Of a stretch of DNA of 59,259 nt, positions 55 to 55,376 are shown in pieces. The stretch is from the IMG/VR virus record IMGVR_UViG_3300048599_000301, positions 1-59,259 of that record; one strand, given 5' to 3'. Each line of letters starts with the position of its first letter. Position 1 is the first letter of the stretch. Made by a program: the position numbers and the translations under genes. Under the pieces are notes generated by a model that did no database searches, was not told where the DNA came from, and saw only the letters and a program-made list of their open reading frames with translations. The DNA is from a virus. Its lineage: Duplodnaviria > Caudoviricetes.

Positions 55-125
55 TGGGGAATAGTGTAACGGTAGCACGACTGACTCTGGATCAGTTAGT
101 CAAGGTTCAAATCCTTGTTCCCCAG
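55..125 (+). tRNA. tRNA-Gln (anticodon CTG), integration target
   Basis: Acceptor stem TGGGGAA/TTCCCCA, anticodon arm CTGA-CTCTGGA-TCAG (CTG at 87-89), T-arm CAAGG-TTCAAAT-CCTTG; CCA not encoded. Confidence 0.96.
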
Positions 126-167
126 CTCCTGAAAGCCTTTCCTGACAACGAGTTAGGAAAGGCTTTT
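85..167 (+). repeat. attL core: 83-bp direct repeat (tRNA 3' half plus terminator)
   Basis: Identical to 48055-48137; identity starts in the anticodon loop. Confidence 0.95.
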
Positions 168-1033: not shown

Positions 1034-1062
1034 TTGCAAACAGCACGCCGCGGGGGTATCGT
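1034..1062 (+). promoter_or_regulatory. Sigma70-like promoter of the 1131 gene
   Basis: TTGCAA-17 bp-TATCGT. Confidence 0.55.
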
Positions 1063-1130
1063 GGTGGACATGGGGCAGATTCTTCGAAGGCAGGAAAGGT
1101 GCAGATTCTTCAATCGGGGAGGGCAGCTAG

Positions 1131-2036
1131 ATGGGGTTTGCGAAGGCTTTTGGCGGTGCTGTCGGCGTGGTGTTGGGGCTGGCTGCGGGATTCGTTCTCC
1201 TCTGCTTGGGATGTGGCGGATGCGTGATGATCCTGTCGTCTGCTGGAGACTCAGCCCGGCAGGCGGCCCGCGAGTCGCAGGCGAGGCAAGAAGCACGTGA
1301 AAGAGTCGCGGCAGAAGTCAGGGCCCAATCCTCGGCTCCGTCGCAACCCCTAGCCAGGGAACCGTCGCCGTCGACGGACTCGGCCGTGCAAGAGTCCGCC
1401 CAGCCAACACCGCAGGCAGAATCGTCACCGAATACGCCGATCGCAATGAACGATTCCACTTCCTCCCAAAGACCATTGAAGGTTGTCGCAGAGAAGGCCT
1501 CCGCAGATGAGCCGGAGGATTCCGCAAAACGGCGGACCTGGACCGATTCCACCGGAAAGCACACGATCGAGGCGGAGTTCAAGGGAGTCGCGGCCGGCAA
1601 GGTGAAGCTCTTGAAGGCGGATGGGGAAACGATCACGATCGCCTTGGACAAGTTGAGCGACGAGGATCAAGCGTGGATCAAGGACCGGCCGCGGGCCGAG
1701 GAATCGCGACGCTCGGCCGCCGCCATCGAACGGAAGCGGGTCGCGGAAGAACGGCAACGAGAGGCTCGCCTGCAGGCGGCTGCCGAAGAGCGTCGACGGG
1801 AAGCCGCCTCGAAAAACCTCGGCATCACGAAGGCGGCCTATGACCGGATTCAGACGGGCATGACCTACCGCCAGGTCGTCGAGATCATCGGCCAGCAGGG
1901 CGAAGAGCTTTCCCGCAATAGCATCGGCGGCGAGGAAACGGTGATGTGCCAATGGACGACCAGGACCGGCCCGAACATGAATGCGATCTTCCAGGGCGGA
2001 AGACTTGTGCAAAAGGCTCAATTCGGGCTCGAATGA
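1131..2036 (+). CDS. Membrane-anchored SHD1-domain protein with C-terminal DUF3862/BLIP-like domain (moron)
   Basis: N-terminal hydrophobic helix with CLGCGGC; RTWTDSTGKHTIEAEF...LSDEDQAWI (SHD1); ITKAAYDRIQTGMTYRQVVEIIG...KAQFGL; RBS GGAGG. Confidence 0.8.
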   Translation: MGFAKAFGGAVGVVLGLAAGFVLLCLGCGGCVMILSSAGDSARQAARESQARQEARERVAAEVRAQSSAPSQPLAREPSPSTDSAVQESAQPTPQAESSPNTPIAMNDSTSSQRPLKVVAEKASADEPEDSAKRRTWTDSTGKHTIEAEFKGVAAGKVKLLKADGETITIALDKLSDEDQAWIKDRPRAEESRRSAAAIERKRVAEERQREARLQAAAEERRREAASKNLGITKAAYDRIQTGMTYRQVVEIIGQQGEELSRNSIGGEETVMCQWTTRTGPNMNAIFQGGRLVQKAQFGLE

Positions 2037-2052
2037 CCAGCACCAATTCTCT

Positions 2053-2125
2053 TGCTGCCTCGCCTCGCAAAGCCCGAGGCAGCGCGGCCGCTCTGGACTG
2101 CCTCCGGCGGCCGTTTTTTATGCGC
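2053..2125 (+). ncRNA. Two-hairpin antisense sRNA, copy 1 (predicted target: start region of gene 1131)
   Basis: Stem TGCTGCCTCG/CGAGGCAGCG, stem CGGCCGC/GCGGCCG, T6-ATGCGC tail; scaffold shared with three copies at 51765-52112. Confidence 0.75.
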
Positions 2126-2439
2126 GGGCGGTCTGGCGAGCATGAAAAAGCCCTTGTTGCCGGGGCAGGGAGCAACAAGGGCTGAAGAGGTGAGGATTGC
2201 TCCTCACATGTCACTAGTTTAGCGAGCCGAAGAGGAGGCTTGCAAGGGTGGTGCGGTAGTCGAATTCTTCACGAATGGCCTCGACTATCGCCCACCCATT
2301 TAGGGTGGATTAATGAACAGTGTGGATGTGCGAGGGATTGAGCAGGAGGCATCCAGCCACTTATCAGTTGCAATTGCTCGCTGTCTGTGCAATCATAACC
2401 CCCGTCTTGGCCACTTTACTCAAGCTCTGGGGGCCTGCC

Positions 2440-3765
2440 ATGGCAGACGTTCGTTCGATCACGCCTTCAAACCTTCTGGTCGATGCGGAGAATCCGCGAC
2501 TATTGCAGCCGAACGAGGGGCAGCGAGAAGCCATGAGGGCGCTTGCCAAGGTCATGCCACGCAAGATACTCTCGCTTGCGAAGGACATCGTTGCAAATGG
2601 CCTGAATCCGGCCGACCTGCCGATAGTGATGCCCGCGAATGACAGCGAGAATCGGTACGTCGTGCTTGAGGGAAACCGGCGGCTAGTCGCATTAAAGGCG
2701 CTGGAGAATCCGGATTCTTTCGTCGGCGCCCTTGATGGCGGCTCGCTTTCGAGCATGCGAACGCTTGCAAGAGAGTACCAAGAGACGCCCATCGACTTGG
2801 TTCAGTGCTTGGTGGTGAAAGACCGTCCAGATGCGGAGCACTGGATCAAGCTACGGCATACTGGAGAAAACGAGGGGGCCGGAATCGTTCCATGGGGTGG
2901 TGACGAAACAAATCGGTTTCGCGCCCGAGGAGGCCGAAAGGATCTTAGCACTCAAGCTCTAGACTATCTTGAACGACATAACGTCTTGACGCCAGAGGAT
3001 CGCAGTAAGGTGCCGGCGACAAGCCTAAAGAGATTGTTGGGAACACCAGAGGTTCGCGACAAGCTTGGGCTTGACCTTCAAGATGGTGAGCTGATAGTAC
3101 GTGCTGACGACAAGAAAGTCACGAAGGCCCTCAAGTATGTGACGAATGATCTCGCCGCGGAGAACGGCACGAAAGTAAAAGACATCTACACCAAAGACCA
3201 ACGCAAGGCCTATGCAGCAGGACTTCCGCAAAACATTGTCGTGAAGCCGCAAGAGGGAAATGGTCGCAGCATCGGAGACAGCGTCGCAAAGCCACTGCCG
3301 AAGACGAAAGGCGTCAAGAAACCCAAACCAGCCAGAACTCGCGATACTCTTATTCCACGCGACTGCGTACTGGCCATAACGCATCCGAGAATTCGTGCCA
3401 TTGAGGGCGAATTGCGATCGTTGAGTCTCGAAAGCCATACCAACGCGGTAAGTGTGCTATTTCGTGTTTTCGTTGAGTTGAGCGTTGATGAGTACATCGA
3501 CACGCATGCCTTGACGTGTGGGCCCCACGACAAACTGCGGCAGAAGCTGGAAGCAGTTCTGAACGATCTTCTGTCACACAAGAAGTTGACGACACAGCAG
3601 GCAAAGCCCGTCAGGAAGGCGACGATGAAGGATTCGTATCTCGCTCCATCGATCGACCTGATGCATGATTACATCCACAATCAGCACGTCTTCCCCGCCC
3701 CGGGCGACCTGCGTGCACACTGGGACTGTCTGCAGCCGTTCTTGATCGGTATGTGGTCGTCTTGA
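2440..3765 (+). CDS. ParB/Srx-like N-terminal domain protein with HEPN-like C-terminus (candidate defence effector)
   Basis: LLVDAENPRL, YVVLEGNRRLVALK (ParB-like); VLFRVFVELS and MHDYIHN (HEPN-like); lower GC than the phage core. Confidence 0.7.
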   Translation: MADVRSITPSNLLVDAENPRLLQPNEGQREAMRALAKVMPRKILSLAKDIVANGLNPADLPIVMPANDSENRYVVLEGNRRLVALKALENPDSFVGALDGGSLSSMRTLAREYQETPIDLVQCLVVKDRPDAEHWIKLRHTGENEGAGIVPWGGDETNRFRARGGRKDLSTQALDYLERHNVLTPEDRSKVPATSLKRLLGTPEVRDKLGLDLQDGELIVRADDKKVTKALKYVTNDLAAENGTKVKDIYTKDQRKAYAAGLPQNIVVKPQEGNGRSIGDSVAKPLPKTKGVKKPKPARTRDTLIPRDCVLAITHPRIRAIEGELRSLSLESHTNAVSVLFRVFVELSVDEYIDTHALTCGPHDKLRQKLEAVLNDLLSHKKLTTQQAKPVRKATMKDSYLAPSIDLMHDYIHNQHVFPAPGDLRAHWDCLQPFLIGMWSS

Positions 3766-3808
3766 TTCTCCTATGGCCATCTTGAGAGAAGTTGCCTAGA
3801 ATCGTGGC

Positions 3809-4708
3809 ATGAAGCCCTACACTCCATTGCGATACCCAGGGGGAAAGCGTCGCCTAGCAGACGTGGTCACTCGCCTTCTGGAACAGAACGATCTACGTGA
3901 TATCCAATACGTCGAACCCTATGCCGGTGGCGCTGCGGTCGCGCTCGGCTTGCTTTTCGAGGAATACGCATCGACCATCCACCTGAACGACTTGGCTCGG
4001 CCAGTATACTCGCTGTGGCACACGATTCTGAATGATACGACGTGGCTGTGCAAAAGAATCCGAGCCGTCAATGTAACGATGCGGGAGTGGAAGCGACAAA
4101 GGGCGGTCTACGACAGGCGAGAAGACGCCAACCTTGACGATCTGGGGTTTGCCACGCTGTTTTTGAATCGAACGAATCGATCTGGTATTATCCAGGGCGG
4201 CGTAATCGGCGGAAAGGACCAGGCAGGCGAATGGACCCTTGACGTTCGGTTTGGCAAGGACTCGTTGATTGATCGCATCAAGAAGATCGGTCGATACCGA
4301 GACCGGATCAAGCTATACCAGATGGATGGCCGAGAGTTTACTCAGAAGGTCGTCGCGAAAATGGGCCGCGATGCGTTCGTCTTTGTCGATCCACCGTATA
4401 TTGAACGCAGCTACCAACTCTACATGAACACGTATACAATCGGCGACCACCGAAAGCTGGCCAGCAGCGTAACCAAGCTTCGGCAACCGTGGATTGTGAC
4501 GTACGACAAGGCAGCGATTTTTCACCGCCTCTATCCCTCGTTCCGCCGAATCGTGTACGGACTTCACTATACCGCCCACGAGAAATACGAGGGACAGGAA
4601 GTCATGTTTCTATCGGATGGGCTTCAACTGCCGAGAATCTCAGACCTGTTGGGGCCGAGAATGCAGTTCTGCCGTTCGGGGTCGCGGCTTTGGCAAGGCA
4701 AGAGCTGA
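3809..4708 (+). CDS. D12-class (Dam-like) N6-adenine DNA methyltransferase
   Basis: [28 protein letters not shown]; TAGAAT 6 nt before ATG suggests a leaderless transcript. Confidence 0.9.
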
Positions 4709-4713: not shown

Positions 4714-7545
4714 CTATGCCTGGGCCGTCTGATTAGGCGGGCTGGCCGGCGGAGTCGTGCTCCAGGGCAAGTAGAGTTCCGCGGACGTGCCCTTGGTGCC
4801 ATCCGCGGCGATCGCGGCCAGGGCGACATACTCGGGGGCCTGCTGGCTGCGCGTGGCTTGGTAGGCCAACTGCGTGGGCATGGCGGCAACACGCTGGGCC
4901 GGCGGGCCGGAGGTGTCGACCGGGGAGGCCGGGGCGAACCAGAGGCCCCAACGGATGTCCCAGACGGTAACGGCGTGGCTGGCGGTCCAGGTCAGAGTGG
5001 TCTGGCCGCGGGAGACGGAGGCGGCCAGGTCGAGGGCCGTGGGCAGCGGGTCGAGAACCGGCGGGAGGTCGTCGGCGATCGTGACGACTTGGACGGTTGG
5101 CTTCCTCGCGGCCTTCCAGTAGAGGCCTTCACGTACGGACCAGACTTCATAGGTTCCCGGGGCCAGGGGAACGTCGACGAGCTGCAAGGGCGAGGCGTCG
5201 GCGTCGACCGCTCCAAGCTCGGTGACCACGCCCGTGGCCAGGTTGCGGGCGTAGATATGGTGGCGATCGGGATAGAGAATCCGGTACCGCCAAACGAAAT
5301 CGGCGACGGTTGGCACGCGGGCTTCTATCGAGGCCCACCGCGCGGCCAGGTCGGCCGACGTCGGGATCCGCACGTCGACCACGGATGACCAACGCGCGGC
5401 GAAGTCAGCACTGGTCGGCACGCGTGTTTCGACGATCGAGCCCCAGCGAGCAGCCAGGTCCGCGGACGTCGGCGTGCGAACGTCCTCCCGTGCGGACCAT
5501 CGGGCGGCAAGATCGGCACTGGTTGGCGTGCGAACATCTTCCTGAGACGACCAGCGGACGGCCAAGTCGGCAGACGTCGGCGTGCGCACGTCGAGGGTCT
5601 GCATCGGCAGGAAGGTCAACTCGTGATCGGCCTCGGTGGCGTTGTAGTACTCGAACTCGGCGAAGGCCTGCGGAAGGACCGTGCCCGTGAGGATACGGAC
5701 GTCATCGATCCAGCCATAATGCGGATCGGGTTCGCCGGAATCCATCCGGCCGCCGATCTGCACGGGATCGGTTCCCGAGGCCAGAGCCACCGGACCGGCC
5801 GCGTACCATGGTTGCGACGTGTTCCAAAACCCGGAGCAGAGGACGCCGTTGACGTAGACCTTTGGATTGCTCGTGCCGTTGTACGTGACGACGATGAAAT
5901 ACCAGGTGTCGGCCTGGAGGTTGGCGTTGGTCGTATGCCAGAGCCGCCAATAGCCCGCCGCGTGGAAAGAGAACGTGAGATTGTTCGTGCTGCCGCCGTA
6001 GGAGTTGCTCGACTTGGCCAGCGCCCAATTGCAGCCGCTGTCGCGTTTGGTGGCGATCACGGGCGTGGCGTCCTGGATCGCGTCCCACTTGACCCAGGCC
6101 GAGAGCGTGATGCTGGTCGAGGTCGCGCCGATGTTTCCCGCGTTGATGTAGTTGCCGGCAGTTCCGTTGAAATACTGGCATCCTGCGATAACGCCGGTCG
6201 CCGCGTTTGGCAAGCTCCCAACATAGGTGCCGTGATTGCTGCCGATCAAGTTGGTGGCGGTCGCGCCGGATGTCTCGTCCAGAGGGAAGACGCCGGCGTG
6301 TCCGGTCCAGACGGCCGATGGATTCGAGGAGGTCGGCGAGGTCGCGCCGCAATAGGCGTAGATCGTCACATCCTCGGCCGCGAGGATGGAGGCGACGGTC
6401 AATCGCCAGATCCCCAACGCCTTTCCGGAAGTAACTGAGAATGCAATCAATTGGCGCGAGAGAACGGTTGTCCCGTCAGGCCCTGCGAAGAAAACGTCGC
6501 TGCCATCGGCGGCGCACCAGGACCCCAGATCCGTGCCTCTTGCCTCGTCGTCGATTACCACCAACAGCCGATGCGAAGTCAGGTCGGCGCTGATGTGGTC
6601 GCGCTGGACGGTGAACGGCAAGCGGTGTGTCTGGCCGGTGATCCACGGCGAGGTGCCCGGGTCGGGGGTAGTGACGGTGACCGTGACGCTGTAGGTACGG
6701 CTAACGCAGTCCGACCCGACAGTCAATGTGTAGGTGGTCGATGTCAGTGGCCAGACGGTCACCGTGCCGCTTTCCGGGCCGTCGATGACGCCGGAGAACA
6801 CAGGGCCCACGCCGTTGTCGATCTCAGCATCGACCCCCACCAGCTCTCCGGTTGGACAAGTGACGCTCCACGTCAGCGTCACCGGCTCGCCCGGCTCGAC
6901 GGTCGTGGGGGAGGCGGCAATCGAGCCGCTGGCGGTCACTGGCGTGAGCGCGAACGTGGTCGAGGTGGTGCCGTTGGCGTTGGTCGCCTCGATGGTGATG
7001 GTATCGGTCAGGCTTCCCGTCAGCGTGACGGTCTGACCGCTAAAACTGCACGCACCGTCGGCAACGGCGAGCGTCCCGGAATCCACGCTCTGAGAAGACG
7101 CGACGTACCGCCACGATTCGGCGCGCGTGAGTGCCACACGCACGACGACCTGCCACGGGTCACAGTTGAGCGACTCGACCTCAGCGCTGATCGCCGGCTT
7201 GGCCGTGTCCACCAACACCTCGACGCTGCTCGTCCCGATCTCGTCGCCTCCCGAGCAGTGCTGGGCGGTCCAGCTCACGACGCCTGTGGCCGAGTAGGGG
7301 CTCGCGTAGATCGGGACCTCGACTTCAGACGGGAAGGAGGTCACCGCGGGGAGGTCGGTCATCGACTCCCAAGCGGGACAGGTGAGGTAGCCTCGAAACT
7401 CGGGCCTGTTTTCCGAATCGTAGCAATCCAGGCACGGGCCGTTGATGCGGACGCGGACCGTCCCCTCCGTGCGCATGCCGGCCGACGGCTTGTAGACCGA
7501 AGTGCCGCAGCGGTAGGTAACCGACAGAACTTCAACGAGTGGCAT
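4714..7545 (-). CDS. Tail adhesin / receptor-binding-like protein (Ig/PKD-like, DUF2341-like, LamG, 18-aa repeats)
   Basis: Last gene of the tail operon; GEPVTLTWS...IDNGVGPV; DGSDVFF...TIYAYCG; ITLSAWVK...WYFIVVTY...VYVNG...GWIDDVRI. Confidence 0.75.
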   Translation of the reverse strand: MPLVEVLSVTYRCGTSVYKPSAGMRTEGTVRVRINGPCLDCYDSENRPEFRGYLTCPAWESMTDLPAVTSFPSEVEVPIYASPYSATGVVSWTAQHCSGGDEIGTSSVEVLVDTAKPAISAEVESLNCDPWQVVVRVALTRAESWRYVASSQSVDSGTLAVADGACSFSGQTVTLTGSLTDTITIEATNANGTTSTTFALTPVTASGSIAASPTTVEPGEPVTLTWSVTCPTGELVGVDAEIDNGVGPVFSGVIDGPESGTVTVWPLTSTTYTLTVGSDCVSRTYSVTVTVTTPDPGTSPWITGQTHRLPFTVQRDHISADLTSHRLLVVIDDEARGTDLGSWCAADGSDVFFAGPDGTTVLSRQLIAFSVTSGKALGIWRLTVASILAAEDVTIYAYCGATSPTSSNPSAVWTGHAGVFPLDETSGATATNLIGSNHGTYVGSLPNAATGVIAGCQYFNGTAGNYINAGNIGATSTSITLSAWVKWDAIQDATPVIATKRDSGCNWALAKSSNSYGGSTNNLTFSFHAAGYWRLWHTTNANLQADTWYFIVVTYNGTSNPKVYVNGVLCSGFWNTSQPWYAAGPVALASGTDPVQIGGRMDSGEPDPHYGWIDDVRILTGTVLPQAFAEFEYYNATEADHELTFLPMQTLDVRTPTSADLAVRWSSQEDVRTPTSADLAARWSAREDVRTPTSADLAARWGSIVETRVPTSADFAARWSSVVDVRIPTSADLAARWASIEARVPTVADFVWRYRILYPDRHHIYARNLATGVVTELGAVDADASPLQLVDVPLAPGTYEVWSVREGLYWKAARKPTVQVVTIADDLPPVLDPLPTALDLAASVSRGQTTLTWTASHAVTVWDIRWGLWFAPASPVDTSGPPAQRVAAMPTQLAYQATRSQQAPEYVALAAIAADGTKGTSAELYLPWSTTPPASPPNQTAQA
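5284..5592 (-). repeat. Six tandem ~54-bp coding repeats (DVRTPTSADLAARWSxxx)
   Basis: Visible in both translation and DNA. Confidence 0.9.
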
Positions 7546-7573
7546 GTTCAGGCTCCGTACTCCTAACTCCTGA

Positions 7574-8980
7574 TCAGGTCCACGAAAACCGCATGCGCTC
7601 CAGGTGGTTCCCGGCCGGTTCGCCGTCGCGGATCGTTTCCACCTGCCAGAGGATCGCCACCCCGCCGGCCCCAAGGTTTCCGATGGCGAGTTTTGCGGAT
7701 TCGGTGGGACAACTGAACGTCAGCGGAGGAAGCTGCGTCTCGCTGGTGATGACCTCGGTCGGGGCGGGGTCGATTGTCAGGTCGACCGGAGCCATTGGCC
7801 GGATCGTGTCGCCGGCTTCCCAGGCGACGGCGGTCTTTCCACGGAAACCGACCGCAACGGCCGAGAGCGTGCCAAGGGCCCCGGCCGTCTCGCCAACCTG
7901 GAATGTCCCGGTCAGGCTCTTGCAGATCGCGTAGCCGGCCCGGGAGGCGACTACTACGGCCGTCGCTCCGCTGGTTGCTCCGGTGATCGTCGCGCCGTAT
8001 GCCGCGGCCGTCGATCCGTTGCCGGTCAGGACCACCCAGTTGGCCGCGGGGCAGGTGAACGTGTTGCCGCTGAGCGTGTAGGGCCGCAAATCGCCCTTGG
8101 TGCTGTTGTAGACCCAGCCGGCGGCCTCCCAGTCGCTGGCGTCTGTTCCGTCGAACGTGCCGGCGGTCAGCCCCAGGGAGCTGCCGGTGGCGATCGTGGT
8201 AGCCGTGCCGGCCGGCGGAATGAGGTGAACCGCCAATGAGGCCATGACCCCGCTTGCGTTGCCGTTGACGGCGGCGATCCCGCGGACGCGGACCTTGCCG
8301 CCGCTGATCTCGGAGGTTTCGTCGCCCTCGTAGTCGGGCACGAACTTGCCGACCGGGAAGGCCAGCGTCCAGGGCTCCGTCTGGTCGGTGGCGGGGAGGC
8401 TGGCCAGGACCGCCGTTACCTCGATAAAGCCGTTCTTGGCCGCGTTGTAGACCGGCTTGGCCTCGCTGGTGGCGGTCGAAAGGGCCACGGCCTCGCCGTA
8501 TTCCTCAGTGCCCATCTTGATCTTGACGGTTTGCCCGCTAGCCGTGAAGGCGACCGTCAGCGTGCCCTCGCCCAGGCCGGCCGCTGCGCGATGGATCGAC
8601 AGGCCGGTGATCGTGCTGCCGGCCACGGCGGCAATTTCGGGCTGTTCGCCGCCGACGGTCTGCCCCAGGATCTGCGTTGTGGAGCGATTGGACCCCACGG
8701 CGCAGAAGACGAATTGATCGCCGGCAGACGGGGCAGATGAAAGGGCCTTGGACAGCGGGTAGGCGCCGCCGCTGGCCGGCCCCATGACATGGAACGGCTC
8801 GCCAGCCAGGGCTCCGGTAATGAACCAGCCGACGCCGCCGGCCGGAGCGGTGAGGGCCGTGGTCGGCACCAGGCTGGTCGTCGTGCTGCCCGTTCCGATG
8901 GTGTGCGTCGGCAGGGGTTGACTGGCCGTGGCTCCGGTGAGGTAGTACAGTTTGAGGTCGGCCGCGGTGGGTGTCGGCAT
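7574..8980 (-). CDS. Putative tail structural protein (Thr/Gly/Ala-rich)
   Basis: Position in tail operon, beta-rich composition, RBS GGAG before MPTPTAA. Confidence 0.6.
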   Translation of the reverse strand: MPTPTAADLKLYYLTGATASQPLPTHTIGTGSTTTSLVPTTALTAPAGGVGWFITGALAGEPFHVMGPASGGAYPLSKALSSAPSAGDQFVFCAVGSNRSTTQILGQTVGGEQPEIAAVAGSTITGLSIHRAAAGLGEGTLTVAFTASGQTVKIKMGTEEYGEAVALSTATSEAKPVYNAAKNGFIEVTAVLASLPATDQTEPWTLAFPVGKFVPDYEGDETSEISGGKVRVRGIAAVNGNASGVMASLAVHLIPPAGTATTIATGSSLGLTAGTFDGTDASDWEAAGWVYNSTKGDLRPYTLSGNTFTCPAANWVVLTGNGSTAAAYGATITGATSGATAVVVASRAGYAICKSLTGTFQVGETAGALGTLSAVAVGFRGKTAVAWEAGDTIRPMAPVDLTIDPAPTEVITSETQLPPLTFSCPTESAKLAIGNLGAGGVAILWQVETIRDGEPAGNHLERMRFSWT

Positions 8981-46441: not shown

Positions 46442-46702
46442 ATGGCTTGGACTAAGTACACCCCCGACGATCTTGAGCAACTCGCCTCTGAGCTTGAGTT
46501 GCGAGCCAAGAGCCTGCGGGACGCGGCGGCGATCGTCCGGCAACGATCAGAGAATGGCGGTGGCGCCTTTGTCGAAATGAATCAGTCGCTTTCGAAGAGT
46601 TCTCCACTGACCAAGGGATTCGCCGCGATAATGGACTTCGCTGCGCAGGCCACGGCGAAGGCGGGAATGGCCCAAGTTCGTTGCATTGGGAAATCGGAGT
46701 AG
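46442..46702 (+). CDS. Small helical protein in the repressor position, paralogue of 560-826
   Basis: Divergent from the early operon, directly upstream of the integrase. Confidence 0.6.
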   Translation: MAWTKYTPDDLEQLASELELRAKSLRDAAAIVRQRSENGGGAFVEMNQSLSKSSPLTKGFAAIMDFAAQATAKAGMAQVRCIGKSE

Positions 46703-46707
46703 CCTCG

Positions 46708-47979
46708 ATGCAAGAGGGCAGAATCAGGGTCTACGTCTACGAGGAATCTGGGCGGCGGTACTATCGGATGAAGTACCAAGATCCAGTTTCCGGGGAGTGG
46801 AGCCGGAGGTCGACGGAGGTACCGGTAAACGAGGGACGCAGAAAGGACGCCGATCGTGCTGGAGCGGTCTGGGAGGCGGAACTGAATGCGGGGCTATACA
46901 CACCGCCGTCCCAGGTTTCGTGGGAAGAATTCCGCGACCGGTATGAGGCGGAGGTCTTGCCAGGCGTCGAGCCGAAGACGCGAACGTGTTACCGTACGGC
47001 ATTGAACGCGTTCGAACGCGTGATCGGGAAGCCGCCACGACTGGCCGTTGTGAACGGCAGTGTTATGAGTCGGTTTTGCTCGGAGTTGAGAAAACCGCGG
47101 CCAGCCAAGCCGCCGGAGGAGAAGCAGAAAGGCAGAGGCCGGCGACCGAAAGAGCAGGTGACCGAAGCGACCATCGCCAGTTATCTCCGCGGTCTCCGCG
47201 CGGCATTTCGTTGGGCTTCAGATACGGGTTTGATGCCGAAAATGCCGAAGTTCCCCCGGCTTCGTGCCAGCCGGTCTGGTGCAGCGCGAATGAAGGGGCG
47301 TCCGCTGACTCGGGAAGAGTTCGAGCGAATGCTCAAAGTAGTCTCGAAGGTTGTAGGGAAAGAGGCCGCCCCGTTGTGGCGGACGTTCTTGCGTGGGCTG
47401 TGGTGGTCCGGGCTGCGTCTCGACGAGGCCTTGCATCTGTATTGGGCTCCCACGCCATCCGACGAAAAGGCCATCGCGATTTGCAGTGACGGCGCGTATC
47501 CTATGCTCTGGATTCCTCCGAAGGGTCAGAAGAACCGCCAAGAGCAGTTACTTCCGGTTGCTCCGGAGTTCTGGAGGTTCCTTGAAAAACGATGGCCTGA
47601 AGATCAGCGGGAAGGTCGCGTTTTTCGCCTGACAAGCAAAATGGGCAACTCGGTTCGTGATTTGCGGGTCGTCTCAAAAACGATCTCACAGATCGGAGAA
47701 CGAGCAAGCGTTGTCGTTGATGCCCATAAGGGGAAATTCGCCAGCGCTCACGATCTGAGACGTTCCTTCGGGCTGCGCTGGGCGACGCGTGTCCTTCCCC
47801 AGGTTCTTCAGGGGATGATGCGACACAAGGACATTGCCACTACAATGACGTACTACGTTGGGAGTCTGGCCGAGACTACAGCGGCTGGTATCTGGTCTGC
47901 ATGGAAGCGAGAAAGGCGGAAAAGCAGTGGGACCAGAAGTGGGACAAAGGCGGGCTCTGAAACGGAAAAACACGAATGA
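46708..47979 (+). CDS. int: Tyrosine recombinase (phage integrase)
   Basis: GLRLDE (R), HDLRRSF (HxxR), MRH, TTMTYY; adjacent to attR. Confidence 0.93.
   Translation: MQEGRIRVYVYEESGRRYYRMKYQDPVSGEWSRRSTEVPVNEGRRKDADRAGAVWEAELNAGLYTPPSQVSWEEFRDRYEAEVLPGVEPKTRTCYRTALNAFERVIGKPPRLAVVNGSVMSRFCSELRKPRPAKPPEEKQKGRGRRPKEQVTEATIASYLRGLRAAFRWASDTGLMPKMPKFPRLRASRSGAARMKGRPLTREEFERMLKVVSKVVGKEAAPLWRTFLRGLWWSGLRLDEALHLYWAPTPSDEKAIAICSDGAYPMLWIPPKGQKNRQEQLLPVAPEFWRFLEKRWPEDQREGRVFRLTSKMGNSVRDLRVVSKTISQIGERASVVVDAHKGKFASAHDLRRSFGLRWATRVLPQVLQGMMRHKDIATTMTYYVGSLAETTAAGIWSAWKRERRKSSGTRSGTKAGSETEKHE
47926..47945 (+). promoter_or_regulatory. Putative integrase arm-type site, right
   Basis: AGTGGGACCAGAAGTGGGAC matches 184-203. 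Confidence 0.7.
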
Positions 47980-48054: not shown

Positions 48055-48137
48055 CTCTGGATCAGTTAGTCAAGGTTCAAATCCTTGTTCCCCAGCTCCT
48101 GAAAGCCTTTCCTGACAACGAGTTAGGAAAGGCTTTT
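48055..48137 (+). repeat. attR core (duplicated tRNA-Gln 3' half and terminator)
   Basis: 83-bp identity to 85-167. Confidence 0.95.
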
Positions 48138-48567
48138 CTTATGCCCTGATGGTAGGGGGGGTGCTCAGCGCTATGCCGGCGCTAGGGCTGGCTAGCGACA
48201 GTGCCCCCTAGTGTCCTTCTGCAACATTGCGTCACCAGTGAAAAGAGGACCACCCGCAATCCTCCGTACCCTGGTGGGGTGTCCAGTGAGAACCCCACCG
48301 GTCGCTGGGCGTCAGTAGTCCGCATAAGCGTTTGCGGCTGCGTTACTTATGGATGGCTTAGCCTAGTGGCTACTTCCGTCTATTGACGGACGCAGGGATA
48401 TTCCTTATCAATGCAGTTGGCGAATCGCGAACCAGGCGGTTTCATTTCGATTCCCCTGGTAGTAGACTGGATTTAGGTGGGACGCAAGTCTCGCGTGGGC
48501 CGATAAGTGATGATGGTTTCGCCACGGATATCGGGTGAGATCGCGTCTTAAGAAAAGGGTTTGGGAT

Positions 48568-49038
48568 ATGTGTAACCTCCTCGAACTGGCGCAGAGCAAA
48601 GCCCGCGTTTACCGCGATGAGGTTGAGCTGTGGAAGACCGATCACGAACAGGCCATGCTGTTTTTTGCCTTCGAAGACGTAGTTGCGGACGGCATTCGAG
48701 TCTTTGAGCTGGTCAACCGGCTTGACGAAACCATTCGCACTCGCCTATATCAGAACGATCGCGAGTGTGGCGCGGAATCGCTTGCCGCGATCGACACGAT
48801 CTATGATTTGTTGCGCAGGGCCTGCGGCGCGATTGAAGACGTGCTGCCGAGTGTTGAAGCTGACTTTGGGGCCGTTCGGAACGCCGAGAAATTCCGCAGT
48901 GTCTGCCACGAGTTGCGATGCATGCAAATTCCCGATGAAGAGTTCTTTGCCGACGATGCCCTAGTGCAACTTCGCGATGAAGCGATAGACCAGTACCGAG
49001 GGGGCGAAACTCGTGAGCTCTGCGGGAACGACGGGTAA
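48568..49038 (+). CDS. Putative antitoxin
   Basis: Acidic ORF overlapping the downstream toxin; ends DEAIDQYRGGETREL. Confidence 0.6.
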   Translation: MCNLLELAQSKARVYRDEVELWKTDHEQAMLFFAFEDVVADGIRVFELVNRLDETIRTRLYQNDRECGAESLAAIDTIYDLLRRACGAIEDVLPSVEADFGAVRNAEKFRSVCHELRCMQIPDEEFFADDALVQLRDEAIDQYRGGETRELCGNDG

Positions 49039-49324
49039 CAGTAATCGCCGCGCCCCTGGCTTCAATGCCATGTTCGACAAGCTGCCGGAGCCTGTGCAGA
49101 CGGCCGCCAAGGCCGCTTTCGATCTATTCTGTCGAGATCCAAGCAACCCAGCACTGGAGCGGCACTTCCTGAAGGACACCAAGAAGGGGCGGCATAAGAT
49201 TGGAAGCGTTGCGGTTTCTGTGACCCGTCGTTACCGCGCAATCTACGTAGAGGACGGCGGGGTTAACATTTGGTACTGGATCGGCTCGCACGAAGCCTAC
49301 AACAACTACACAGGCAAGATCTGA
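49013..49324 (+). CDS. RelE/ParE-superfamily toxin
   Basis: FDKLPEPVQ...DPSNPAL...YRAIY...WYWIGSHEAYN. Confidence 0.82.
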   Translation: MSSAGTTGNSNRRAPGFNAMFDKLPEPVQTAAKAAFDLFCRDPSNPALERHFLKDTKKGRHKIGSVAVSVTRRYRAIYVEDGGVNIWYWIGSHEAYNNYTGKI

Positions 49325-49380
49325 TTTGCCTACGCCTCCCTGCCAGTGTCTAGTGAGAAGCCGCTCGCCTAAATGCGGTC

Positions 49381-49623
49381 TTACCTCGCCTCCCTCCGCC
49401 TCATCGCCCGATGGCTTCTCCCTGTCGCCTCCCGCATTCTGATGGGGCCGACCCTGAAGGTCTTCCTCGCCCACCGTCGAATCGTCGTCTCTTCCGTGGC
49501 CGGACCATGTAGCATCTCCTCGCCATACCAGTCCACCAAGATTCGGACTACGGTTCTGTCGAACTCCGTAACTTCGTCCGTATCCGCCGTTGGCTGCTGC
49601 TCTTGAGGTTCAGGCTTGGTCAT
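49381..49623 (-). CDS. Hypothetical protein
   Basis: Short ORF with a plausible RBS. Confidence 0.45.
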   Translation of the reverse strand: MTKPEPQEQQPTADTDEVTEFDRTVVRILVDWYGEEMLHGPATEETTIRRWARKTFRVGPIRMREATGRSHRAMRRREAR

Positions 49624-49742
49624 GGAACGCCTTCAAATAATAAACCCCGCCCACTCGCCGCTGCATGCGGCGTGCCGCCCATGAACGAAAAGCCCCGCCC
49701 CAGCATCGCCCGGGGCGGGGCCACTGTCAACCGTTTGCCTTC

Positions 49743-50228
49743 CTACGGCAGCCGAACGGCCGCCGCCTCGTCTGGGGTTGCGTAGGTCATCTGAATCATC
49801 GACCTAGCGACCAGCAGCAGCCGCTCGCTGTGCTCCTGCCCATACGGGGCTTGCTGTTGGCATAGTTCCATGAGCATGTCGTAGGTCTCGTGGTCGATGC
49901 CGCCGGCTGACCGCAGCTTCTTCGTATAAGCCTCGGTACTGAGTGTGGCCGGGTCTTGCCTGCCGGTGATGATCTGAAAGTGGATTCGAAGGACCATCTC
50001 CAAGACCGACATGAGCAGGATGCGCACATCCTGATACCGGCCCGCGCGATGGAGGTTTGCCGCTGTGCCAACGAGTGCAGCGTAGCAGGTCCGGACGTCC
50101 CGGTCCGTCAGAAGTGCCTCGACCTGCTGGCGGATGCGATTCTTGCGGGCCTCCTTCTGAACGGTCGTCATCTTCGGTTGCCGGTTGCTTGTGACGACGT
50201 TGTTCTCGACGTATGCGGTGGTGATCAT
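49743..50228 (-). CDS. Hypothetical protein
   Basis: GGAGGT RBS; coupled to the upstream ORF. Confidence 0.6.
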   Translation of the reverse strand: MITTAYVENNVVTSNRQPKMTTVQKEARKNRIRQQVEALLTDRDVRTCYAALVGTAANLHRAGRYQDVRILLMSVLEMVLRIHFQIITGRQDPATLSTEAYTKKLRSAGGIDHETYDMLMELCQQQAPYGQEHSERLLLVARSMIQMTYATPDEAAAVRLP

Positions 50229-51295
50229 GCGACACCTCCCACCACGGCCGTGGGTTCGTCGGCTTCTTCCTCTTCCTCAACCTCCGTGTCTTCGTCCGGC
50301 TCCTCGTCGTCACCGGGCCGCGCCAAGCCGTTGGCCGCCGCCTTGCGGAACTTGCGGGCAGTCTCCTCCAGGTCGGTTGCCAGGGCCAGCAGGATGCCTT
50401 CCAGGTCAATCCGGTCGTCGATCGCGGGCACGTACCACGGGCCGGCCACGTCAAACTCCAGATCGAACGTCTGGGTTCGCTCGTCCATTTCGCCGCCCAC
50501 GAACTTGTCGAAGCCGTTGGCCCGAAGGATCTGGGTCAGCGTCTGCCGCTTGGCGGGCCGCTTCGGGTCACAGTGACCCGCGGCGTGTCCGTTGGTCCGT
50601 TCAATTGGCTCACAGTGATCCGATTTTCGAGCCACCGGGCCGCTCTCCTCGTCGTCGTTCTCCGCGGGCTCGCTGGGCGGGTTTTGTTGCCCACGGGCAA
50701 CATTCTCCGCCGCCTCCTGCGCTCGATAGTCGACCAGATGGGCCAGCCCGTCGCGGACCTCATCGGCGGTCGGTAAGACTAGCACCATAGGCAACTGCTG
50801 GCATCGCTCGATGATGCCCCGGTCGCCCTCGAAAACGAACGTGTCGGTCGATTCCTCCGGGATCGGATCGCCGCTTTGAGTGACAACCCACCAAACGCGA
50901 TCCTCGGCCCACGAAAGCAAGCTGTTGGTCTGGTCGTTCAGCTCAACCATCCGGCGGAACGCGCTCTGCCGGGAATCGTGGCTACGGCGGTCGGTCTGCC
51001 ATGAGCCGAGCCAGCCGAACATGGGCACGCTCAACTCATGCTGGGGTTCCCAGCCTTCGGGCACCCTAAGCGGGATGGTGTGGAACTTGTGCTCCGGGTT
51101 GTCGGGATCGACCGTTCCGAGCACTTCGGTCCCCTGGGTGTCGATCGTCGCCGCCGCAACGAGCGTTGCCGGGTCGACGGTCGGGTCGTCGGGTTCGTAG
51201 CCGTCGAAGGCATCCCGGATGGCTTGGCGAATTGCGGCCTGACGGGAGACGTAGAGCGAACCGTTAGAACGAAACAGAGAGACTTGGGTAGCCAT
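50225..51295 (-). CDS. Acidic hypothetical protein
   Basis: AAGGAG RBS before MATQVSLF. Confidence 0.6.
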   Translation of the reverse strand: MATQVSLFRSNGSLYVSRQAAIRQAIRDAFDGYEPDDPTVDPATLVAAATIDTQGTEVLGTVDPDNPEHKFHTIPLRVPEGWEPQHELSVPMFGWLGSWQTDRRSHDSRQSAFRRMVELNDQTNSLLSWAEDRVWWVVTQSGDPIPEESTDTFVFEGDRGIIERCQQLPMVLVLPTADEVRDGLAHLVDYRAQEAAENVARGQQNPPSEPAENDDEESGPVARKSDHCEPIERTNGHAAGHCDPKRPAKRQTLTQILRANGFDKFVGGEMDERTQTFDLEFDVAGPWYVPAIDDRIDLEGILLALATDLEETARKFRKAAANGLARPGDDEEPDEDTEVEEEEEADEPTAVVGGVA

Positions 51296-51764
51296 GACTG
51301 GCTCCTTTCGCTGGCAGATTGCCAGCAAAGAAGACAGTGAGCCCACGTGCTCGGTTGATAAGCGGATCGACCGCCGACCGTGCGTTGCTCCCCCGCCGCT
51401 GCGGGTTCATCGCTTCAACACGGCCCCAAGTACGTGGGCTCACTGTCTGACGCATGGGTGTCCTTTCGATCGGGTTATCAAGCCCGGATGGCGGTTGCCA
51501 TCGCCCGTGATTATCGCTGATGCCTCCGGGAAAGTCAACTACCTCTGTTGGAGGGGTGGAATGATGATCTGGGCTGTGATGTCAGTGATGGACCGGCCGA
51601 TGGCCCAAAAATGACCTCCTGGCTTGCGTTTCCTCGTCACCGGATGAAGTTTTCGAAGGACGGGCCGGAAGACGAACCGAGCCGCCAGCGGGGCTCCTGG
51701 GCGATTCTAGAGGGTGTCGGGAAAAATCTTATCCAGCTTGCCAATTGTGATGTATGTTTGTCTA

Positions 51765-51836
51765 GCTGCCCAGGTCTTCAACCTTCCTGAGGCAGCACGG
51801 CCGCTGATTCCCTCTCAGCGGCCGTTTTTTATGCGC
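51765..51836 (+). ncRNA. Two-hairpin antisense sRNA, copy 2
   Basis: GCTGCC...GGCAGC stem, ACGGCCGCTGA/TCAGCGGCCGT stem, T6-ATGCGC tail; -10-like TATGTT at 51753-51758. Confidence 0.72.
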
Positions 51837-51906
51837 TGCATCGTCGGCGATCAAGTGGCCAAAATGACCACTTGAAAACAGCGTCGCCCCGGTGGTATCC
51901 TGATCG

Positions 51907-51979
51907 TGCTGCCTCACCCGCAAAGCTGAGGTAGCGCGGCCGCGTCGGGCTGCCCTCCGGCGCGGCCGATTTTGTGCGC
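51907..51979 (+). ncRNA. Two-hairpin antisense sRNA, copy 3 (complementary to start region of prophage gene 1131)
   Basis: Same scaffold; promoter TTGAAA-18-TATCCT (51872-51901); 51943-51958 pairs 15/16 with 1118-1133. Confidence 0.78.
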
Positions 51980-52031
51980 CCCCATGGCGCCGCCCCTTGC
52001 TTCCAGCCCGCCCCGGCGCTATGCTGGTGAG

Positions 52032-52112
52032 CGCTGTCTCGACCCATACAGACAAGCTGAGGCAGCGCGGCCGCGATGGAACCCCACCCTCCACGCGGCC
52101 GATTCTTTGCGC
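52032..52112 (+). ncRNA. Two-hairpin antisense sRNA, copy 4
   Basis: Same scaffold; promoter TTGCTT-17-TATGCT (51997-52025). Confidence 0.75.
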
Positions 52113-52203
52113 TGGCCGTCGGGCAGCCCACCTATTGCTCCGCGCCCACGCCGGCTTTAGACTGGCGGGCATCGATGGTGTGCTAACGAAAGGGGTGGTG
52201 ATC

Positions 52204-52548
52204 ATGGGCATGGTGGTTCTGTGGTGTGCGCTGTCCGCGATCGGTGGCCTGATTGCGCTGGTGGTCAACGGTCGCGTGCTGGCCGGGCTCGTGCTTGGGT
52301 TACTGCTCGGGCCGATCGGCTGGCTACTGGTCTTCTTTCTGTCCGACCTCCGCCAGCGTTGCCCGTCATGCAAGGGCGTGGTGGCGTCCGATGCGACCGC
52401 CTGCATGCACTGTGGAGCGAGCCTTATCACGCGACCGCTTCCTCAGTCCAGCGAGACGTTCTGTCAGAAATGCGGCGTCGATGGCATGTCGACGATGGAA
52501 TTCGGCCGGCGCGTGATGCGTTGCCCGAAGTGTGGAGCCAAGCTGTAG
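52204..52548 (+). CDS. Membrane protein with double zinc ribbons
   Basis: GLVLGLLLGPIGWLLV TM; CPSC..CMHC and CQKC..CPKC; promoter TTGCTC-17-TAGACT upstream. Confidence 0.75.
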   Translation: MGMVVLWCALSAIGGLIALVVNGRVLAGLVLGLLLGPIGWLLVFFLSDLRQRCPSCKGVVASDATACMHCGASLITRPLPQSSETFCQKCGVDGMSTMEFGRRVMRCPKCGAKL

Positions 52549-52611
52549 TCTCTTGGCGCGTTTCGTTGTTGTGGTGGTAATGCCGGGGATGGCAAGGAAA
52601 GGGGTAGATGG

Positions 52612-53388: not shown

Positions 53389-53393
53389 CCCGC

Positions 53394-55265: not shown

Positions 55266-55376
55266 GATTCCGCCCTCCAGGAATGCGAGTGTTTACCCTA
55301 ACCACCTGCATCCTAAGCCTCTCAAATGAGCGCGCAATACCTCTAGCGGGTGGCGCGATAAGATGACTGGTTGTGG

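What the first reader, a model, noticed from the sequence alone, without database searches (positions are those of the whole stretch)
1118..2125. Prophage membrane-protein gene followed by its own cognate two-loop silencer RNA
Seen: sRNA copy 1 starts 17 nt after the stop of gene 1131. Loop 2 (2092-2105, UCUGGACUGCCUCC) pairs with 1118-1131 (GGAGGGCAGCUAGA) with two single-nt bulges and one G-U. Loop 1 (2062-2075, GCCUCGCAAAGCCC) pairs with 1133-1147 (GGGGUUUGCGAAGGC) with one mismatch and one bulge. The order is correctly antiparallel and brackets the AUG. Established: type I toxin-antitoxin systems silence membrane proteins by RBS occlusion, sometimes through 3'-end fold-back (hok). Inference: the SHD1/DUF3862-like protein is a tightly repressed toxin, exclusion or abortive-infection factor. 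No clear promoter precedes copy 1, so it may act in cis or after processing.
Basis: partly seen in the sequence, partly recalled or inferred. Interest (0 to 1): 0.85.

Follow-up and report, generated by a model that had tools for sequence, protein, structure and literature searches.

The report
Prophage gene's terminator RNA matches start
A prophage accessory gene for a membrane-anchored protein ends in a two-hairpin terminator RNA whose loops are complementary to the gene's own ribosome-binding site and first codons, which suggests self-silencing of translation, but the case rests on sequence statistics from a single contig.

Summary
Element 2053-2125 starts 17 nt after the stop codon of gene 1131-2036. 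It folds into two hairpins, and the second is an intrinsic terminator.

The joint two-site match is the best in the contig on either strand. It is reached by 2 of 2000 loop shuffles and 0 of 2000 target shuffles. Loop 1 is the specific part. Loop 2 is a generic C-rich anti-Shine-Dalgarno loop.

The element is one of four paralogues. The other three lie at 51764-52112, and two of them have their own promoters. All four have complementarity to the same start region. The promoter of gene 1131 is paralogous to those small-RNA promoters.

The gene is a prophage moron (tRNA-Gln att repeats, integrase, structural genes) encoding a 301-aa TM + SHD1 + DUF3862/BLIP-like protein. It is not a type I toxin.

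Best reading (about 45%): translation is repressed by the mRNA's own 3' end, in cis or after processing, as in icaR or OppZ/CarZ. Main rival: an ordinary terminator plus a chance match.

No homologous DNA and no RNA data could be obtained, so covariation remains untested.

The parts
55..126 (+). tRNA-Gln (CTG), the integration target
   Evidence: ARAGORN; Rfam tRNA 67.5 bits
85..167 (+). Left att repeat: the 3' part of the tRNA plus its terminator hairpin. It is 100% identical to 48055-48137.
   Evidence: the repeat finder family D3
48055..48137 (+). Right att repeat. The integrase gene 46681-47979 lies just inside it.
   Evidence: Pfam Phage_integrase
1034..1062 (+). Predicted promoter of gene 1131: TTGCAA, 17-nt spacer, TATCGT. 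It would give a 5'UTR of about 62 nt. It is paralogous to the promoters of small RNAs B and C.
   Evidence: Read from the sequence. It matches 8 of 12 consensus positions, which is below the scan tool's threshold. Its best ungapped match in the whole contig is the C promoter at 51997 (25 of 36; next best 21; background mean 9.6, sd 2.6). Function is inferred.
1118..1131 (+). Shine-Dalgarno region (GGAGG at 1118-1122) through the A of the AUG. This is the loop 2 target. It contains GAGGGCAGC, a motif otherwise almost confined to the small-RNA family.
1133..1147 (+). The G of the AUG plus codons 2-6. This is the loop 1 target.
   Evidence: it is the third-best loop 1 site in 118 kb
1131..2036 (+). 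Moron gene. The 301-aa protein has an N-terminal hydrophobic anchor, a low-complexity linker, an SHD1 domain, a charged helix and a DUF3862/BLIP-like domain.
   Evidence: Pfam; PHROGs 37750/6148; PDB 2hbp SHD1 E 1e-9; hydropathy. The start is supported by the 301-aa homologue P0001, which shares 61 of the first 66 residues.
2053..2125 (+). Two-hairpin element, copy 1. Hairpin 1 spans 2054-2083 and terminator hairpin 2 spans 2084-2114, followed by a U-tract. It forms the 3'UTR and terminator of gene 1131.
   Evidence: 93 bits
51764..51836 (+). Paralogue A. It has no convincing promoter. Its 5' end, 51758-51771, is complementary to 1121-1134.
   Evidence: CM 92 bits; terminator scan; duplex -24.8 kcal/mol
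51907..51979 (+). Paralogue B, with its own promoter at 51872-51901. Loop 2 (GGCUGCCCUCC) forms 11 contiguous pairs with 1118-1128.
   Evidence: CM 41 bits; promoter scan 9 of 12 with TG; duplex -24.0 kcal/mol
52032..52112 (+). Paralogue C, with a promoter at 51997-52025 read by eye. Loop 2 pairs with both the SD and AUGGGGUU of gene 1131.
   Evidence: CM 36 bits
52135..52163 (+). Fourth promoter of the same family, upstream of the membrane zinc-ribbon gene 52204-52548.
   Evidence: 25 of 36 match to the C promoter; Pfam zinc-ribbon

Best explanation
Gene 1131-2036 is a prophage moron, an independent accessory transcription unit. It lies between the left att site and the tail genes.

It is transcribed from its own promoter (about 1034-1062) and ends at 2053-2125, a ~70-nt module of two adjacent hairpins whose second hairpin is the intrinsic terminator. 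This part is near certain.

The module belongs to a four-member family of small-RNA-like units in this contig. The family has conserved stems and variable, C-rich, anti-Shine-Dalgarno loops.

In the linked copy, the two loops can clamp a continuous 30-nt stretch of the same mRNA. Loop 2 pairs with the SD and the A of the AUG, and loop 1 pairs with the G of the AUG and codons 2-6. This would block 30S binding.

The most likely working is negative control of translation of the membrane protein by its own 3' end. It could act as a fold-back in the finished transcript, which would limit translation to the co-transcriptional burst. It could also act after cleavage in the 17-nt A/U-rich spacer, as a 3'UTR-derived small RNA giving feedback.

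The free-standing paralogues (B and C, perhaps A) could repress the same start region in trans.

Shown here: the anatomy, the complementarity and its statistics, the family and the promoter paralogy. Inferred: transcription, RNA ends, pairing in vivo and repression.
For: Anatomy and pairing are confirmed.

Statistics of the match:
- The joint two-loop score is the best of 118,350 windows on both strands.
- Shuffles reach it in 2 of 2000 and 0 of 2000 trials.
- Among 59 crudely called gene starts plus 5 added by hand, the 1131 start region ranks first for copy 1 loop 1 (-22.2 against -17.1 for the next), copy 1 loop 2, B loop 2 (-24.0 against -18.5) and C loop 2 (-23.2 against -21.5).
- In the reverse scan of the start region against 39,478 sampled 45-nt windows, small RNA B is the best non-self partner and copy 1 is about 11th.

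Energetics. The net energy after opening costs is about -17 kcal/mol. The 5'UTR is less structured than all 200 shuffles.

Family. Four copies score 36-93 bits. 93.8% of stem cells are paired, against 28-56% when the partner columns are slid. The loops vary.

Promoters. The promoters of gene 1131, B, C and gene 52204 are paralogous. The mRNA therefore carries a family promoter at its 5' end and a family RNA body at its 3' end.

Precedent. 3'UTR-SD pairing in icaR (PMC3868564, abstract read). Autoregulatory 3'UTR small RNAs OppZ and CarZ (PMC7398697, abstract read). Two-site loop binding by OxyS on fhlA (PMC2946933, passages read).
Against: - There is no comparative support. No family member was found outside this contig in the viral, genome or metagenome collections or in 4 distant relatives of the phage. 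The DNA of the one close homologue (P0001) could not be fetched.
- There are no RNA data.
- Loop 2 alone is weak evidence (122 of 2000 and 81 of 2000 shuffles), because any CCUCC loop fits a strong SD.
- The loop 1 core CGCAAAG is shared with paralogue B, so it was not shaped for this target alone.
- Loop 2 of B fits the SD better than that of the linked copy.
- Paralogues A-C show no comparable two-loop match to their own neighbouring genes, so 'each copy silences its neighbour' is not a family rule.
- The margin over the next best site in the contig is only 1-2 kcal/mol.
- Full pairing of 12-13-nt loops needs some stem melting and is a pseudoknot, which the energy model does not cost.
- The MFE of the whole mRNA pairs the start region with 1418-1494 instead, although that duplex is ordinary (4,911 of 39,478 windows are as good).
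- With only 4 sequences there are no double compensatory changes in the stems.
- The finding was picked because of the match, so the true base rate of such regulation matters.
Confidence: 0.45

Rival explanations
1. The element is an ordinary compound intrinsic terminator. It is a repeated promoter/terminator 'moron skeleton' that has been copied around the element. The loop-to-start complementarity has no function. Loop 2 fits because it is C-rich and the SD is long and G-rich. Loop 1 fits by chance or as a relic of sequence duplication.
For: - Hairpin 2 plus U6 is a canonical terminator sitting exactly at the gene's end.
- Conservation runs past the U-tract (UGCGC in all four copies). That points to DNA-level duplication rather than selection on the RNA.
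- Loop 2 alone is not significant.
- The margin over the next best site is small.
- The motif GAGG(G)CAGC in the SD region also forms the 3' half of stem 1, so shared ancestry could produce complementarity.
- There is no comparative or expression support.
Against: - The joint match is reached in 2 of 2000 and 0 of 2000 shuffles and is the best in 118 kb.
- Similarity to the antisense of the element is confined to the two loops. The stems are absent from the start region, and the covariance model finds no antisense copy there. An inverted duplication would not leave that pattern.
- Three further paralogues also fit the same start region best among 64 starts.
- B and C are promoter-hairpin-terminator units with no ORF, so they look like RNA genes rather than gene terminators.
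Confidence: 0.3
2. The family are trans-acting anti-SD small RNAs whose real targets are host or other phage mRNAs. They would work like the C-rich-loop RNAs of other bacteria. Copy 1 is released from the 3'UTR of gene 1131 as one more such RNA. The fit to its parent start region is incidental, or is only one minor target.
For: - All four terminator loops carry CCUCC/CCCUC.
- B and C have their own promoters.
- The start of the tail-fibre-like gene at 55265(-) is a recurring second-best target: rank 1 for A loop 2, and rank 2 for B and C loop 2.
- A gives a weak hit to the alpha-proteobacterial anti-SD small RNA family mmgR/suhB (18.6 bits, E 0.34).
Against: - The host genome is not available, so no host target can be shown.
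- Loop 1 of copy 1 fits the linked gene far better than any other start (5 kcal/mol margin).
- The Rfam hit is far below the gathering score (41 bits).
Confidence: 0.17
3. The locus is a type I toxin-antitoxin-like pair in which a toxic membrane protein is held silent by its cognate RNA.
For: The protein has a membrane anchor. The RNA can occlude the RBS. The gene sits beside a defence system in a prophage accessory region.
Against: - The protein is 301 aa with SHD1 and BLIP-like domains, not a short hydrophobic peptide.
- The RNA is on the same strand, without a promoter, and is the gene's own terminator.
- Gene 1131 has no PADLOC match.
- A 72%-identical full-length homologue exists on another contig, but that says nothing about toxicity.
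Confidence: 0.03

Closest known systems
icaR mRNA 5'-3'UTR pairing in Staphylococcus aureus (PMC3868564; abstract read)
   Same: A C-rich anti-SD motif in the 3'UTR of an mRNA pairs with the SD region of the same mRNA and blocks initiation.
   Different: In icaR the 3'UTR is long and a single UCCCCUG motif does the pairing. Here two loops of a compact terminator module pair on both sides of the AUG, the module has free-standing paralogues, and nothing has been tested (RNase III cleavage, toeprints).
Autoregulatory 3'UTR-derived small RNAs OppZ and CarZ of Vibrio cholerae (PMC7398697; abstract read)
   Same: A small RNA shares the terminator of its parent mRNA and base-pairs with its own transcript to inhibit translation, giving negative feedback.
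   Different: OppZ and CarZ are released by RNase E and depend on Hfq. Here processing, the chaperone and even the host are unknown. The target is the first cistron's own start, bound at two sites.
OxyS-fhlA two-site kissing complex (Argaman and Altuvia 2000, seen only as cited in PMC2946933; passages read)
   Same: Two hairpin loops of one small RNA bind two sites of the target, one at the SD or leader and one inside the coding region.
   Different: OxyS is a trans-encoded stress RNA and its two sites lie apart. Here the two sites are contiguous (1 nt between them) and the RNA is linked in cis.
hok/Sok fold-back inhibition
   Same: The 3' end of a full-length mRNA pairs with its 5' end and keeps it translationally inert.
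   Different: hok encodes a ~50-aa toxin and has a separate antisense antitoxin with its own promoter plus a leader ORF. None of these features is present here.
C-rich-loop small RNAs such as LhrC, RsaE/RoxS, 6C and AbcR/mmgR (recalled; only the weak Rfam hit to RF00519 comes from a call)
   Same: These are multicopy or tandem small RNAs of two hairpins. Their loops, including the terminator loop, carry C-rich anti-SD motifs that bind G-rich ribosome-binding sites.
   Different: No sequence or covariance-model membership was found (no gathering hit; 18.6 bits against 41). This family is phage-borne and known from one contig only.

Membership tests
Type I toxin-antitoxin (hok/Sok-like) | The toxin is a small hydrophobic peptide (roughly under 60 aa). 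| tested here: not met
   The protein is 301 aa, with one N-terminal hydrophobic segment plus SHD1 and DUF3862 domains. The size criterion is recalled.
Type I toxin-antitoxin (hok/Sok-like) | The antitoxin RNA is transcribed from its own promoter, antisense to or divergent from the toxin gene. | tested here: not met
   The element is on the same strand, 17 nt after the stop codon, and no promoter-like site was found.
Type I toxin-antitoxin (hok/Sok-like) | The toxin arrests growth when it is not repressed. | not testable with these tools
   This needs an expression experiment.
Rho-independent (intrinsic) terminator | A G+C-rich stem immediately followed by a U-tract at the end of a transcription unit. 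| tested here: met
   A 9-bp stem (2084-2092 with 2106-2114) is followed by T6. The scan tool reports an inner 5-bp version.
Prophage moron | An independent transcription unit (own promoter and terminator) inside a prophage, not needed for the phage cycle. | tested here: inconclusive
   The prophage is shown and the terminator is shown. The promoter is only predicted (8 of 12 consensus positions, plus paralogy to the B and C promoters). The definition comes from the abstract of PMC3594210 in the listing.
3'UTR-derived autoregulatory small RNA (OppZ/CarZ type) | The small RNA lies in the 3'UTR and shares the mRNA's terminator. | tested here: met
3'UTR-derived autoregulatory small RNA (OppZ/CarZ type) | The small RNA base-pairs with its own transcript and inhibits translation. 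| tested here: inconclusive
   Complementarity is significant in silico. Repression was not tested.
3'UTR-derived autoregulatory small RNA (OppZ/CarZ type) | The small RNA is released by endonuclease processing and accumulates as a stable RNA. | not testable with these tools
   No RNA run was listed.
icaR-type 5'-3'UTR interaction | An anti-SD motif in the 3'UTR is complementary to the SD of the same mRNA. | tested here: met
   Loop 2 CUGCCUCC pairs with GGAGGGCAG.
Rfam RF00519 (mmgR/suhB) and all other Rfam 15 families | The score reaches the family's gathering threshold. | tested here: not met
   There is no gathering hit except the tRNA. The best hit for A is 18.6 bits against 41, E 0.34. 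Nothing relevant was found for copy 1.

The most novel reading that the evidence does not exclude
The four two-hairpin units may be 'hollowed-out morons': promoter-plus-terminator skeletons that lost their ORF and became trans-acting RNAs. B and C, which lie beyond the right att site in a neighbouring phage-derived element, would be expressed from promoters paralogous to that of gene 1131. They would silence the membrane-protein moron of the adjacent prophage by binding its SD and AUG. That would be RNA-level conflict or cross-immunity between co-resident mobile elements, with the cis-linked copy as the ancestral self-limiting form.
Probability: 0.12. Interest if true: 0.8.

Novelty: new variant of a known kind. 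Interest (0 to 1): 0.5.

Why it matters
Few bacterial mRNAs are known to be controlled by their own 3' ends. Examples are icaR, hbs, hok, OppZ and CarZ. None that I know of is in a phage moron, and none uses two adjacent terminator-module loops to clamp both sides of the start codon.

If the pairing is real, this locus shows how a moron can carry its own expression limiter. That would be useful for a membrane protein that is costly to the lysogen. The locus also offers, in one contig, the linked form and the free-standing paralogues with matching promoters. That is a possible snapshot of how small-RNA genes are born from mRNA ends.

If the match is chance, the locus is an ordinary moron with a repeated terminator, and only the neighbouring PD-Lambda-5 system is of note.

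Tried and rejected
Family outside the contig:
- An exact pattern across the stem 1/stem 2 junction gave 61 hits in viral contigs. I read the flanks of all 61, and 0 had the second stem plus a T-run.
- A gapped junction-plus-terminator pattern gave 5 loci in genome contigs. The best covariance-model score was 26.3 bits, in a Pseudarthrobacter chromosome. Its second hairpin is a different, long stem with no U-tract, so I rejected it.
- The same gapped pattern gave 9 loci in metagenome contigs. The best score was 18.9 bits, and I rejected all 9.
- A terminator-tail pattern gave 15 loci in viral contigs. All were generic terminators scoring 22.8 bits or less.

Relatives of the phage or the gene:
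- The gene 1131 protein and the tail-fibre-like protein found no relative in viral contigs.
- The capsid-protease protein found 4 distant relatives at 47-52% identity. 0 of those 4 records matched the RNA model.
- No DNA match was found in the 'phages' collection. Capsid relatives there are under 28% identical among the rows shown, and all 110 are under 60%.
- The ESM Atlas gave no usable hit.

Sequencing runs. No RNA holder was listed. One DNA run held a 0.10 share of the words. Its contigs covered only parts of the coding region at low depth, not the start region or the element, so nothing can be drawn from it.

Type III toxin-antitoxin, HK022 put-like antitermination RNA and CRISPR-repeat mimic. 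I considered all three from memory and dropped them. The units differ in their loops, end in terminators and have 12-nt or longer loops.

Terminator/antiterminator switch. Loop 2 could pair with the 3' half of stem 1. This is possible in copy 1 (7 bp) and in B, but not in A or C by reading, so it is not a family feature.

Internal pairing of the start region with 1418-1494 in the whole-mRNA MFE. The duplex is ordinary.

Promoter for copy 1 inside the ORF end. Only a weak resemblance exists, and that stretch encodes the conserved KAQFGL motif.

I did not ask for paper supplements.
Full report
Setting. The window is a 59,259-bp virus record, and the 'whole genome' held for it is the same contig. 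A tRNA-Gln gene lies at 55-126. Its 3' part plus the following terminator hairpin (85-167) is repeated exactly at 48055-48137. A tyrosine integrase gene lies at 46681-47979. Between the repeats, on the minus strand, are genes for the portal, a capsid-protease fusion, the large terminase and the tape-measure protein. So 168-48054 is a prophage integrated in tRNA-Gln. Gene 1131-2036 sits in its left arm between att and the tail-fibre-like gene 4714-7674. Immediately downstream lies a complete two-gene PD-Lambda-5 defence system (2440-3765, E 8e-126; 3809-4708, E 8e-112). This is an accessory (moron) region.

The gene. The ORF encodes 301 aa. It has one strongly hydrophobic N-terminal segment (Kyte-Doolittle 19-residue maximum 2.49; all 21 windows above 1.6 start within residues 1-22). 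Next come a low-complexity linker and an SHD1 domain (Pfam E 6e-16; yeast Sla1 SHD1 structure 2hbp, E 1e-9). A charged stretch and a DUF3862/BLIP-like domain follow (Pfam E 5e-7; PHROG 6148, 'moron' category, E 2e-12). A gene caller had started this protein at residue 116 (P0002, 186 aa). However, a 301-aa homologue from another metagenome contig (P0001, 72% identity, 100% coverage) shares 61 of the first 66 residues. GGAGG also lies 8 nt before the ATG at 1131. The start at 1131 is therefore well supported. Gene 1131 has no PADLOC hit. It looks like a membrane-anchored extracytoplasmic protein, not a small pore-forming toxin.

The element. Region 2053-2125 begins 17 nt after the stop codon. 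It folds into hairpin 1 (9-bp stem, 12-nt loop) directly abutting hairpin 2 (9-bp G+C-rich stem, 13-nt loop, then U6). No promoter-like site precedes it. It is the terminator of gene 1131.

A covariance model built from two copies finds exactly four copies in the window, all on the + strand:
- 2053-2125 (93 bits)
- 51764-51836, 'A' (92 bits)
- 51907-51979, 'B' (41 bits)
- 52032-52112, 'C' (36 bits)

The next hit scores 14.5 bits. The stems are conserved: 93.8% of cells are paired, against 28-56% when partner columns are slid. One-sided G-C to G-U changes occur, but with four sequences there are no double compensations. The loops differ. Every terminator loop is C-rich with an anti-SD core: CUGCCUCC, UUCCCUCU, CUGCCCUCC and CCCCACCCUCC.

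B has a sigma-70-like promoter by the scan tool (TTGAAA-18-TATCCT with TG, 9 of 12). C has TTGCTT-17-TATGCT, read by eye. Both place the start a few bases before stem 1, with no ORF between promoter and terminator. They therefore look like small-RNA genes. A has only a degraded version of the promoter. No Rfam family reaches its gathering score. A gives 18.6 bits against a threshold of 41 to mmgR/suhB, an anti-SD small RNA of alpha-proteobacteria. Copy 1 gives nothing relevant.

Promoter paralogy. Upstream of gene 1131 lies TTGCAA-17-TATCGT (1034-1062). Over 36 nt, its best ungapped match anywhere in the contig on either strand is the C promoter (25 of 36; next best 21; background mean 9.6, sd 2.6). 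The C promoter in turn also matches 52135, upstream of the membrane zinc-ribbon gene 52204-52548 (25 of 36). B aligns with a 1-nt indel. The 1131 transcript thus appears to carry a family promoter at its 5' end and a family RNA body at its 3' end, with the ORF between them. This supports co-transcription of copy 1 with the gene. It also suggests that the free-standing units and the moron share ancestry.

The pairing. Four statistical tests were run.
1. A scan of all 118,350 20-nt windows on both strands (self-antisense masked). The joint score with the correct order and spacing is reached only at 1129-1133. The runners-up score -38.5 and -39.2. Loop 1 alone has 3 distinct sites as good or better. 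Loop 2 alone has 269 windows as good or better.
2. Shuffled loops against the real start region. The joint score is reached in 2 of 2000 trials, loop 1 alone in 2 of 2000 and loop 2 alone in 122 of 2000.
3. Dinucleotide-shuffled start regions. The joint score is reached in 0 of 2000 trials, loop 1 alone in 43 and loop 2 alone in 81.
4. A crude set of 59 gene starts plus 5 added by hand. The crude set was selected by GC3; it contains some false starts and had missed several real ones. The 1131 start ranks first for both loops of copy 1, with a 5 kcal/mol margin for loop 1.

Opening costs are 8.4 kcal/mol for both loops and 14.7 for 1118-1147. That leaves roughly -17 kcal/mol, without any cost for the pseudoknot topology. 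The 5'UTR and start region fold less stably than all 200 shuffles (z +2.1), so the region is likely open. I put the chance probability for a pre-specified start region at about 1e-3, and at about 1e-2 after allowing for four copies and a few neighbouring genes each.

The paralogues also fit the same start region.
- B: loop 2 forms 11 contiguous pairs (10 Watson-Crick plus 1 G-U) with 1118-1128, -24.0 kcal/mol.
- C: loop 2 pairs with GGAGGG and with AUGGGGUU across an internal loop, -23.2 kcal/mol.
- A: the 5' end pairs with 1121-1134 (11 Watson-Crick plus 3 G-U, -24.8 kcal/mol), although half of that stretch is in A's own stem.

Among the 64 starts, the 1131 start ranks first for B loop 2 and C loop 2 and fourth for A loop 2. 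Scanning the start region against the contig, B is the best non-self partner. Copy 1 is about 11th of the distinct sites among 39,478 sampled windows. These linear duplexes ignore the RNAs' own stems. The motif GAGG(G)CAGC occurs 9 times on both strands. Seven of those occurrences are in the family or in the 1131 SD region.

This evidence cuts two ways. It ties the family to this start region. It also shows that loop 2 is not 'cognate' to the linked copy, and that the SD region resembles the 3' half of stem 1, so shared ancestry is possible. Against a simple inverted-duplication relic, the similarity of the start region to the antisense element is confined to the two loops and skips the 16 nt of stem between them. 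The model also finds no antisense copy there.

What speaks against a general rule. A, B and C show no comparable two-loop match to their own neighbours (gene starts at 52204, 52612 and 51295). Their recurring second target is the start of the tail-fibre-like gene at 55265(-). The whole-mRNA MFE pairs the start region with 1418-1494, but that duplex is ordinary.

Comparative and expression evidence. None could be obtained. Pattern scans of the three collections and model searches of the loci they returned found no convincing member outside this contig. Four distant phage relatives lack the element. No close phage exists in the annotated collection. The only sequencing run that held words of the region did not cover the start region or the element. 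Exact patterns can miss diverged members, and the tools state that records near the window's own may be left out. Absence is therefore weak evidence.

Verdict. The element is certainly the terminator and 3'UTR of a prophage moron, and it is one of a small family of RNA-gene-like modules. That its loops repress the gene's own translation is the best single reading (about 0.45). It works like icaR 5'-3'UTR pairing or the OppZ/CarZ feedback RNAs, with OxyS-like two-loop binding. It is not a type I toxin-antitoxin pair. The main rival is an ordinary repeated terminator with a generic anti-SD loop and a lucky loop 1 (about 0.3). Next is a trans-acting anti-SD RNA family aimed elsewhere (about 0.17). 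The host is unknown. My impression that SHD1 proteins are typical of Planctomycetota is recalled, not tested.

Noticed in passing
window 2440-4708 (+): A complete two-gene PD-Lambda-5 anti-phage defence system lies directly downstream of gene 1131 in the prophage accessory arm. Gene A (2440-3765) scores E 8e-126. Gene B (3809-4708), a D12 N6-adenine methyltransferase, scores E 8e-112.
   Followed up: partly
window 51764-52163 (+): There is a tandem array of three two-hairpin RNA units (A, B, C), spaced 143 and 125 nt start to start. B and C each have their own promoter. A fourth paralogous promoter (52135-52163) follows, in front of a membrane zinc-ribbon gene (52204-52548) and a 258-aa gene (52612-53388).
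   Followed up: partly
window 85-167 and 48055-48137: An exact 83-nt direct repeat, covering the 3' part of tRNA-Gln and its terminator hairpin, marks the prophage ends. DNA beyond the right repeat (48138-59259) is still called viral. It shares only a tail-fibre-like gene with the prophage (53394-55265 against 4714-7674; 48% identity at the N-terminus and 37% at the C-terminus). It may be a second, different element in tandem.
   Followed up: partly
window 2146-2207: A 12-bp hairpin (2148-2159 with 2171-2182) is preceded by an A-run, so it reads as an intrinsic terminator on the minus strand. A second small hairpin lies at about 2190-2207. No minus-strand gene could be assigned between 2183 and 2440. 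Only a short frame without a start codon is there, possibly a gene remnant.
   Followed up: no
window 1075-1085 and 1101-1111: The 11-nt direct repeat GCAGATTCTTC occurs twice in the predicted 5'UTR of gene 1131. The 5'UTR also holds several GGCAG motifs that are complementary to the CUGCC of the RNA loops.
   Followed up: no
window 1131 vs 1476: The protein on record for this contig (P0002, 186 aa) starts at residue 116 of the ORF. The 301-aa homologue P0001 and the strong SD at 1118-1122 indicate that the true start is 1131, so the record's gene call is probably too short.
   Followed up: yes
window 5335-5592 (-) within gene 4714-7674: 54-nt tandem repeats encode the repeated peptide DVRTPTSADLAARW in the tail-fibre-like protein.
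   Followed up: no
window 51332-51448: A 23-nt inverted repeat (91% complementary, 71 nt apart) lies just upstream of the minus-strand gene 50225-51295, near a strong minus-strand promoter-like site (51538-51510, 10 of 12).
   Followed up: no
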